NCBI RefSeq assembly: GCF_036365525.1
Contig: NC_090404.1
Coordinates: 1,984,001 to 2,048,000 of the forward strand
Origin: Heterodontus francisci
Lineage: Eukaryota
Length of the DNA: 64,000 bases
Direction: 5' to 3'
In this document: one piece after another, positions 30,659-31,005 of the stretch
Position numbering within the stretch: position 1 is the stretch's first letter
Layout: every line of letters starts with the position of its first letter
The notes under the pieces: model-generated
Seen by the model: only the letters and a program-made list of their open reading frames with translations
Databases searched by the model: none
Told to the model about the DNA's origin: nothing
Made by a program: the position numbers and the translations under genes

Positions 30659-30697
30659 GGTTTTTGAATGAAGGGAGCCCCCATCTCTCACACTGTG
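30659..30697 (-). promoter_or_regulatory. 23-bp-spacer recombination signal sequence (23-RSS)
   Basis: Perfect heptamer CACAGTG (30697-30691), 23-nt spacer, nonamer TCAAAAACC (8/9 match). Confidence 0.95.
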
Positions 30698-31005
30698 CCA
30701 CCCAGTATATCTCGCACAGTAATACATGGCAGTGTCCTCAACTCTCAGATTATTCAGTTGTAGATAGGCGGTGTTGCCGCTCTTGGAAACTTCGAATCGG
30801 CCTTGAACTCCAGATGCGTAATACTTGCTACCAGAAGAAGCTATAACCGCGACCCACTGCAGCCCTTTCCCGGGGACCTGTTTCGCCCAGTGCATGCCGT
30901 AGCTGCTGAGGCTGAACCCACTCACTCCACAGGACAATTTGTGAGACTCCCCGAGCTTTTTCACAGCTGAATCGGGCTGGGTCAACACGATATTGGACCG
31001 GACAC
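30698..31005 (-). CDS. IgW: IgW VH exon with a D-like 3' extension (probable germline-joined VD)
   Basis: [57 protein letters not shown] then YTGW before the heptamer. Both Cys and the Trp are conserved; no stops. Confidence 0.93.

What the first reader, a model, noticed from the sequence alone, without database searches (positions are those of the whole stretch)
30659..30720. Germline-joined V-D with an orphan 23-RSS
Seen: after TGT GCG AGA come 12 more in-frame nt (TAT ACT GGG TGG) before a perfect heptamer, whereas ordinary germline V ends within a few nt of CAR. The ATACTGGG core resembles shark D segments. Known: germline-joined VD and VDJ genes occur in sharks and skates, and IgW/IgM V segments can rearrange to TCR-delta D/J. 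Inference: this is a fossil germline RAG event. With no local 12-RSS partner, the VD could be used only with another cluster or a TCR-delta locus.
Basis: partly seen in the sequence, partly recalled or inferred. Interest (0 to 1): 0.7.

Follow-up and report, generated by a model that had tools for sequence, protein, structure and literature searches.

The report
Pre-joined shark IgW V-D, J lost
A shark IgW antibody gene has its V piece fused in the genome to its first D piece, likely by the antibody-shuffling enzyme acting in an ancestor's germ cells, and it lacks a 15.9-kb stretch holding the other D pieces, the J piece and the first two constant exons, so it likely cannot make an antibody by itself; this is a recent variant of a long-known shark phenomenon.

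Summary
Confirmed. The minus-strand V (31005-30711) is followed by 1 extra base, 12 of the 14 bases of D1, and D1's own 23-RSS and 3' flank. An unjoined sister cluster 163 kb away, about 99% identical, supplies the precursor: its V ends directly at a different 23-RSS, and its D1 matches the extension, spacer and flank. Short-read DNA contigs bridge the joint at depth 12 beside 14-18 for shared sequence, so it is constitutional, not a rare somatic event. Both deleted ends begin with CAC, a hint of RAG off-target cutting. TCR-delta-type D-J-C units lie 1.3-1.4 Mb away on the same contig, but no use of this V-D by them or by sister clusters was shown. Partly joined IgH clusters are known in horn shark since 1988 and 7 of 30 top V hits here are joined; I found no paper describing an IgW case. 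The scan earlier noted joined IgM clusters and both sister clusters in this genome, not this joint. New variant of a known kind.

The parts
31126..31171 (-). Leader exon (46 nt, phase-1 GT donor)
   Evidence: ATG and donor; 120-nt intron seen spliced in RNA-type contigs (these may come from the sister clusters, whose leader is identical)
30711..31005 (-). IgW V exon, open frame, untrimmed 3' end; 6 differences from the sister V, 5 of them non-synonymous
30710..30710 (-). Single A found in neither the sister V end nor the D1 start (likely one N base)
30698..30709 (-). D1 remnant, 12 of 14 nt, trimmed by 2 nt at its 5' end
   Evidence: identical to sister D1 and D2 cores
30659..30697 (-). Orphan 23-RSS inherited from D1; 23.5 bits against a median of 22.4 for 54 RSS of this locus
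30483..30658 (-). D1 3' flank (D1-type, 98.7% over 230 nt, against 94.2% over 223 nt for D2)
30480..30482 (.). Junction of a 15,905-bp deletion (sister C34:1,834,875-1,850,776 plus 3-nt microhomology) that removed D2, D3, J, C1 and C2; both deleted ends begin with CAC
27704..28406 (-). C3 and C4 exons, open, AG/GT borders intact
17097..17806 (-). C5 and C6 exons (duplicate of the C3-C4 pair), open
14299..16130 (-). C7, and C8 with secretory tail, open
12132..12279 (-). Transmembrane-like exon (approximate limits)
   Evidence: motif search
58192..64000 (+). 49-bp minisatellite with 96 12-RSS-like sites in the window, pointing away from the orphan RSS; no coding segment attached

Best explanation
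This is a recently duplicated shark IgW heavy-chain cluster whose V is fused to D1, likely by RAG acting in an ancestor's germ line, and which lacks a 15.9-kb block holding D2, D3, J, C1 and C2, so it likely survives as a crippled, read-through-transcribed copy that cannot complete V(D)J joining inside its own cluster. Shown: the joint (V intact, +1 nt, D1 minus 2 nt, both inner RSS and the 0.4-kb V-D1 spacer gone), the precursor, the deletion, the intact C3-C8. Inferred: RAG as the agent (coding-joint anatomy), germ line as the place (depth in DNA, other fixed differences from the sister), loss of function. The deletion is most simply a microhomology-mediated loss (about 0.6), with RAG cutting at two cryptic CAC sites as the alternative (about 0.4). 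The order of the join and the deletion is not known.
For: Unjoined sister cluster B at C34:1.80-1.87 Mb, same strand, 0.6-0.95% divergent in 4 aligned blocks and 99.1-99.3% identical in 2 BLAST blocks: V-23 / 12-D1-23 / 12-D2-23 / 12-D3-12 / 23-J. Flank is D1-type. D-type RSS occurs 4 times in the genome. The D core is used somatically: one RNA-type contig end shows V plus 5 other bases plus ACTGGGTGG plus more bases (table 7). DNA run X2 has a 204-nt contig, 30680-30883, 0 differences, depth 12.1, with 31 and 173 letters on the two sides of the joint; shared-sequence contigs have 13.8-17.9 and the window-specific letter at 30971 has 9.9. DNA contigs of X1 and X2 both end at 30473, where window and sister part. 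Both sister clusters keep J, C1 and C2, so the window is the derived state. Leader-V-D reads through the RSS to a stop 18 codons after the D. RNA-type contigs follow the window's deletion junction (X7 30063-30700 bridges it; X5 29715-30509, 30480-30590 and 30561-30670 at depth 122-137, the last two with window letters) while the bin upstream of the promoter has depth 0 in X5 and X6 and 18 in DNA X2. One added base fits the 'little evidence of TdT activity' reported for germline joints (PMC2193156, passage).
Against: All DNA holders are one sample, possibly the one assembled, so fixation is untested; the RAD run of another individual had no reads over the V or the junctions. Window and sister could be two alleles assembled in tandem: the repeat unit is at least 182 kb and about 99% identical, though there is no gap in 396 kb. 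V, leader, RSS and six C exons are all intact and the V has more changes than the background (6 in 281 nt, P about 0.02, 5 non-synonymous), which does not look like plain decay, though 1% divergence leaves little time for decay. X6 and X7 contigs over the D1 flank carry sister-type letters, so part of the read-through signal is mixed. The RNA label of X5-X7 is a guess by the tool, and contig depth is a poor measure of expression.
Confidence: 0.7

Rival explanations
1. Working V-D cassette: the intact 23-RSS recombines outside its cluster, with sister B's D1/D2/D3 (164 kb downstream, deletion), cluster C's pre-joined D-J (570 kb, inversion) or the plus-strand TCR-delta D (1.43 Mb, inversion), giving IgW or Ig-TCR-delta chimeric chains.
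For: RSS scores like a real one; V open; locus apparently transcribed; 12-RSS partners exist in cis; two D-J-C units whose C exon's closest relatives are labelled TCR delta constant or TCR alpha-like in other elasmobranchs; IgM/IgW V to TCR-delta D trans-rearrangements are described as common (PMC12227049, passages).
Against: No contig with the window's V letters joined to any J was listed (the listed V-exon RNA contigs carry sister letters, and contigs drop rare variants). Rearrangement is 'almost exclusively' within a cluster (PMC4279169, passage). The nearer TCR unit (1.33 Mb) lies upstream on the same strand, where an in-cis join would leave the coding joint on an excised circle (inference).
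Confidence: 0.17
2. Both lesions are RAG footprints: after or with the V-D1 join, RAG cut at two convergent cryptic CAC sites and the ends were joined through a 3-nt microhomology, deleting D2-D3-J-C1-C2 in the germ line.
For: CAC begins exactly at both deleted ends, facing into the lost piece; chance about 3e-4 for exact position, 0.7-2.9% if 2-5 nt of slack is allowed. The nearer cut is 176 nt from the orphan nonamer. One end scores in the top 4.6% of 810 CAC sites as a 12-RSS, the other in the top 15% as a 23-RSS. Neither of 2 control deletion ends examined in cluster C has CAC on both sides (one of them was only readable on one side). RAG off-target joins at convergent CAC motifs are documented in mouse Tcra-Tcrd (PMC4995090, passages).
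Against: Scores are 0.6 and -4.4 bits against 14.9-23.5 for real RSS; nonamers are poor; a single event noticed after the fact; in the mouse data one partner is a bona fide RSS, here neither is; the control set is tiny.
Confidence: 0.35
3. Window and sister are two alleles of one locus placed in tandem by the assembly, so the joined form is a segregating germline allele.
For: At least 182 kb repeated at about 99% identity; window-specific and shared depths are near 1:2, which both models predict.
Against: No N in 396 kb across both units; five private insertions of 0.36-2.8 kb plus the deletion separate the units; the promoter contig shared with cluster C has depth 17.9, lower than the roughly 24 or more that the allele model would give (my estimate; weak, noisy).
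Confidence: 0.2
4. A dedicated V-less IgW gene: with no J donor, the leader splices straight to C3 and a six-C-domain chain is secreted.
For: Leader donor and C3 acceptor are both phase 1 and give an open frame; six C exons and tail intact; a six-C V-less IgW transcript is described (PMC4279169).
Against: The described form joins leader to C-delta-1 by alternative splicing (PMC5192425 section 7), and C1 is absent here; no leader-to-C3 joint among the 15 of 46 joints listed.
Confidence: 0.08
5. Somatic lymphocyte rearrangement or assembly error captured in the reference.
For: Partial VD rearrangements occur somatically in shark lymphocytes (PMC2435157, passages).
Against: Joint-bridging DNA contig at depth 12.1 against 13.8-17.9 for two-copy sequence; the unit differs from the sister along its whole length.
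Confidence: 0.03

Closest known systems
Partly germline-joined IgH clusters of horn shark and little skate (VD-J, VD-DJ, VDD-J, V D1-D2J, VDJ; PMC2193153, PMC5192425, PMC4279169, passages read)
   Same: Coding joint in germ-line DNA, unjoined sister clusters in the same genome, leftover RSS.
   Different: The passages discuss IgM or IgH generally; this is IgW. Described partial joins keep a J and can finish rearranging; this one has lost D2-D3-J-C1-C2, so its RSS has no partner in the cluster.
Nurse shark NS4 (kappa) germline-joined VJ genes (Lee et al. 2000, PMC2193156; abstract and passages)
   Same: Recent join with a near-identical split relative, trimming, little N addition.
   Different: Light chain, complete VJ, expressed early in life; here heavy chain, incomplete, and no hairpin (P) bases.
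IgW, eight-C long form (PMC5192425 section 7; sister model P0068, 981 aa, labelled mu-like by NCBI)
   Same: Same V family, duplicated C3-C4/C5-C6 pair, secretory tail.
   Different: C1 and C2 absent, so no light-chain-binding C1 and no short form.
IgH V segments used by shark TCR-delta (PMC12227049, PMC6795676, passages)
   Same: IgW-type V with a 23-RSS on the contig that carries TCR-delta D-J-C.
   Different: Sits 1.3-1.4 Mb away in a decayed IgW cluster, already carries a D; use not shown.
RAG off-target deletions at convergent CAC motifs (PMC4995090, passages)
   Same: CAC at both lost ends, convergent, near a real RSS.
   Different: Somatic, mouse, one partner a true RSS; here germ line and both ends cryptic.

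Membership tests
Germline-joined elasmobranch IgH cluster | Coding joint between two segments with both inner RSS and the intervening DNA gone | tested here: met
Germline-joined elasmobranch IgH cluster | Unjoined homologue that supplies both segments | tested here: met
   cluster B
Germline-joined elasmobranch IgH cluster | Junction processing of V(D)J type (trimming, N or P bases), no target-site duplication | tested here: met
   D minus 2 nt, 1 added base, no P base
Germline-joined elasmobranch IgH cluster | Present constitutionally rather than in a lymphocyte clone | tested here: met
   depth 12.1 against 13.8-17.9 in X2; one sample, tissue not known
Germline-joined elasmobranch IgH cluster | Shared among individuals | tested here: inconclusive
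Germline-joined elasmobranch IgH cluster | Keeps J and C1 so that a heavy chain can be made | tested here: not met
   deleted; this is what makes it a variant
IgW | Six to eight C exons with a duplicated C pair and a conventional VH | tested here: met
   eight C exons in the sister, six left here against PMC5192425 section 7; no curated IgW-labelled protein was aligned, database labels are automatic
IgH V used by TCR-delta | Linkage to TCR-delta D-J-C and a usable 23-RSS | tested here: met
   1.33 and 1.43 Mb; RSS score
IgH V used by TCR-delta | Transcripts joining this V to TCR-delta D/J/C | tested here: inconclusive
   only assembled contigs available; none listed
V-less IgW | Leader spliced to C-delta-1 | tested here: not met
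   C1 is deleted; definition from PMC5192425
RAG off-target deletion | Convergent CAC at the break ends | tested here: met
RAG off-target deletion | RSS-like nonamer or a bona fide RSS as partner | tested here: not met
   0.6 and -4.4 bits

The most novel reading that the evidence does not exclude
RAG in shark germ cells did more than a canonical join here: it also cut at two cryptic CAC sites and deleted 15.9 kb (D2-D3-J-C1-C2), turning an IgW cluster into a free V-D cassette on the TCR-delta chromosome. That would be a heritable RAG off-target deletion and a concrete route by which cluster V segments become orphan V segments of the kind that TCR-delta uses.
Probability: 0.3. Interest if true: 0.68.

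Novelty: new variant of a known kind. Interest (0 to 1): 0.38.

Why it matters
The class is old news, but this case has a 99%-identical precursor next door, so the germline joint can be read base by base, and it extends germ-line joining to IgW (2 of the 3 clusters of this family carry joins, with different joints). If the CAC-bounded deletion is RAG's work, germ-cell RAG would also delete constant exons, and cluster V segments could be freed for inter-cluster or TCR-delta use; both can be tested by amplicon sequencing with the V's five diagnostic coding changes.

Tried and rejected
Join to D2: rejected by the flank. P-nucleotide origin of the extra A: fits neither end (sequence). Long-repeat recombination at the deletion: only 3 nt shared. 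Pfam PF09291 search for a TCR alpha constant exon: 0 matches and the control did not ring, uninformative. No run on record as RNA was listed; X5-X7 are RNA by guess. No leader-to-C3 or V-to-C3 joint among listed joints (15 of 46 shown; 15 of 2132): weak, contigs drop rare forms. RAD run X10 matched only a repeat. No absolute single-copy depth control was run, so allele versus paralogue stays open. The primary trans-rearrangement paper PMC3222143 is not held; that point rests on reviews. No supplements were read; table S1 of PMC12227049 could bear on locus layout. Literature searches listed no paper on a germline-joined IgW or a germ-line cryptic-RSS deletion in sharks; subscription papers, including the skate IgX genomic papers cited in these reviews, are not searched and might describe joined IgW/IgX clusters.

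Full report
Observation. On the minus strand the window holds a leader (31171-31126), a 120-nt intron and an open IgH V exon from 31005. After TGT GCG AGA come TAT ACT GGG TGG, a perfect heptamer at 30697, 23 nt and a nonamer with one mismatch. No J motif is found in the window. The window is C34:1,984,001-2,048,000 of a 6.0-Gb genome; a predicted protein from the sister cluster carries the label Heterodontus francisci.

The precursor. A DNA search gave 12 matches. The best other match, cluster B, lies 163 kb away on the same strand. Its V ends ...TGT GCG AG directly at a 23-RSS with a different spacer, followed by two identical 14-nt D segments (12/23), a third D (12/12) and a J. The window equals B's V untrimmed, one A, the last 12 nt of D, then the D's RSS and flank. 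The flank is D1's: 3 differences in 230 nt, 98.7% against 94.2% for D2. The D-type heptamer and spacer occur 4 times in the genome: B D1, B D2, the window and cluster C. The D core is seen in a somatic-type junction in one RNA-type contig. This is the anatomy of a V(D)J coding joint; that RAG made it is inference, in line with Lee et al. (PMC2193156, abstract and passages), who saw trimming and little TdT activity in germ-line joints.

Why the RSS is orphan. Window 1-30482 and 30480-43667 are both colinear with B, but 15,905 bp of B are missing at 30480-30482, with ACA shared by both sides. The lost block holds D2, D3, J, C1 and C2; C3-C8, the secretory tail and a transmembrane-like exon remain, open and with AG/GT borders. 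Clusters B and C both keep J, C1 and C2, so the loss is derived. Eight C exons with a duplicated pair fit IgW as reviewed in PMC5192425 (section 7); database labels for these proteins are automatic and unhelpful. Leader-V-D reads through the RSS and stops 18 codons after the D.

Germ line or artefact. In DNA run X2 a 204-nt contig with no difference bridges the joint at depth 12.1; the seven other listed X2 contigs, shared with B, have 13.8-17.9, and the window-specific letter at 30971 has 9.9. A lymphocyte clone would not reach that share. X1-X4 are one sample, perhaps the assembled one; I laid 2 of these 4, and 1 of 4 raw-read runs from other individuals, which did not cover the site. Window and B belong to a tandem repeat of at least 182 kb at 0.6-0.95% divergence without gaps, with five private insertions. 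Two alleles placed in tandem cannot be excluded (about 0.2); the join would then be a segregating germ-line allele.

Expression. Three RNA-type runs show abundant spliced IgW whose listed V-exon contigs carry B letters. Contigs also follow the window's deletion junction: X7 30063-30700 bridges it (with three B-type letters), and X5 runs from 29715 to 30670 in three contigs at depth 122-137, with window letters at 30518 and 30558; upstream of the promoter X5 and X6 have depth 0 where DNA has 18. This points to unspliced read-through. X6 shows B letters over the flank. No joint from leader or V to C3 and no window V joined to a J was listed, but contigs hide rare forms.

Possible outside partners. 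B's D segments lie 164 kb downstream in deletional orientation; cluster C's 12-RSS-D-J lies 570 kb away, inverted. Two head-to-head units of one D (12/23), a J array and a C exon lie at C34:3.30-3.345 Mb (minus) and 3.443-3.46 Mb (plus), followed by a long J array. The 7 closest relatives of the C exon include 6 elasmobranch proteins, labelled TCR alpha-like (3), TCR delta constant (1), or otherwise (2), and 1 teleost kappa; with D segments upstream I read the units as TCR-delta. This matches the IgH-TCR alpha/delta linkage in PMC12227049 (passages and section 6). Only the plus unit could take this V-D in cis, by a 1.43-Mb inversion. Reviews say rearrangement stays almost exclusively within a cluster (PMC4279169).

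The deletion ends. Both lost ends start with CAC exactly at the microhomology and face into the lost piece. Chance is about 3e-4 for exact position and 0.7-2.9% with 2-5 nt slack. On a heptamer-nonamer matrix from 54 RSS of this contig the ends score 0.6 (12-type, top 4.6% of 810 CAC sites) and -4.4 (23-type, top 15%), far below real RSS. Two control deletion ends in cluster C lack CAC on both sides. RAG off-target joins at convergent CAC are known in mouse thymocytes, with a real RSS as one partner (PMC4995090, passages). I give RAG about 0.35-0.4 for this deletion.

How ordinary. Of the 30 best of 150 V matches, 7 show a germ-line join: the window, cluster C, three V-D-D with a 12-RSS before J, one VD-DJ and one with D joined to J; five loci had no J within 1.5 kb and were not classified further. 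Partly and fully joined IgH clusters in horn shark and little skate date from 1988 (PMC2193153, passages; PMC5192425 and PMC4279169). Searches listed no description of a joined IgW, but subscription papers are outside the library. Earlier scan notes cover cluster B's doubled D, cluster C's four-C layout and joined IgM clusters; none covers this joint.

Verdict. Real, recent germ-line V-D1 join in an IgW cluster, orphaned by a deletion; most likely a crippled copy. New variant of a known kind, interest 0.38; the RAG off-target reading would raise it.

Noticed in passing
window 58192-64000 and on to about C34:2,082,000: A 49-bp minisatellite carries 96 sites in the window and 486 beyond it that score at least 15 bits as 12-RSS (best 23.5); the sister unit has 10 in the 5 kb scanned. 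They point away from the orphan 23-RSS, so a join would excise the V-D.
   Followed up: partly
L020-L025, C34:1,444,163-1,446,300 (cluster C): Second IgW cluster with a different V-D joint and a pre-joined 12-RSS-D-(D)-J, needing one more step (VD-DJ type); lacks C3-C5 and part of C6.
   Followed up: partly
L003, cluster C V: Mosaic V: promoter, leader and FR1 almost identical to the window's, including a shared P-to-L change absent from B, but CDR1-FR3 very different; suggests gene conversion.
   Followed up: no
window 30711-30994: 6 differences from the sister V in 281 nt (5 non-synonymous, 2 in CDR1) with none in the 560 nt upstream; P about 0.02 against background.
   Followed up: partly
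C34:3.30-3.345 Mb and 3.443-3.46 Mb (L083-L123): Two head-to-head TCR-delta-type D-J-C units, each with one D and many J, sharing a block of Ig-like V segments between them.
   Followed up: partly
L096, C34:3,678,346-3,678,535: A TCR V followed by four tandem 23-RSS copies at a 63-bp period.
   Followed up: no
L035, C34:12,958,612: IgH cluster with an unusual RSS order (12/12 D first, then a reversed 22-RSS), and a V closer to the IgW V (62%) than the other IgM-type V.
   Followed up: no
window 31898-32256: 359-bp SINE-like insertion 0.7 kb upstream of the leader, absent from clusters B and C.
   Followed up: no
window 26300-26988: Second copy of the region that follows C2 in the sister; an RNA-type contig joins the C2 end to 26737, so this looks like a duplicated short secretory tail behind C4.
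   Followed up: no
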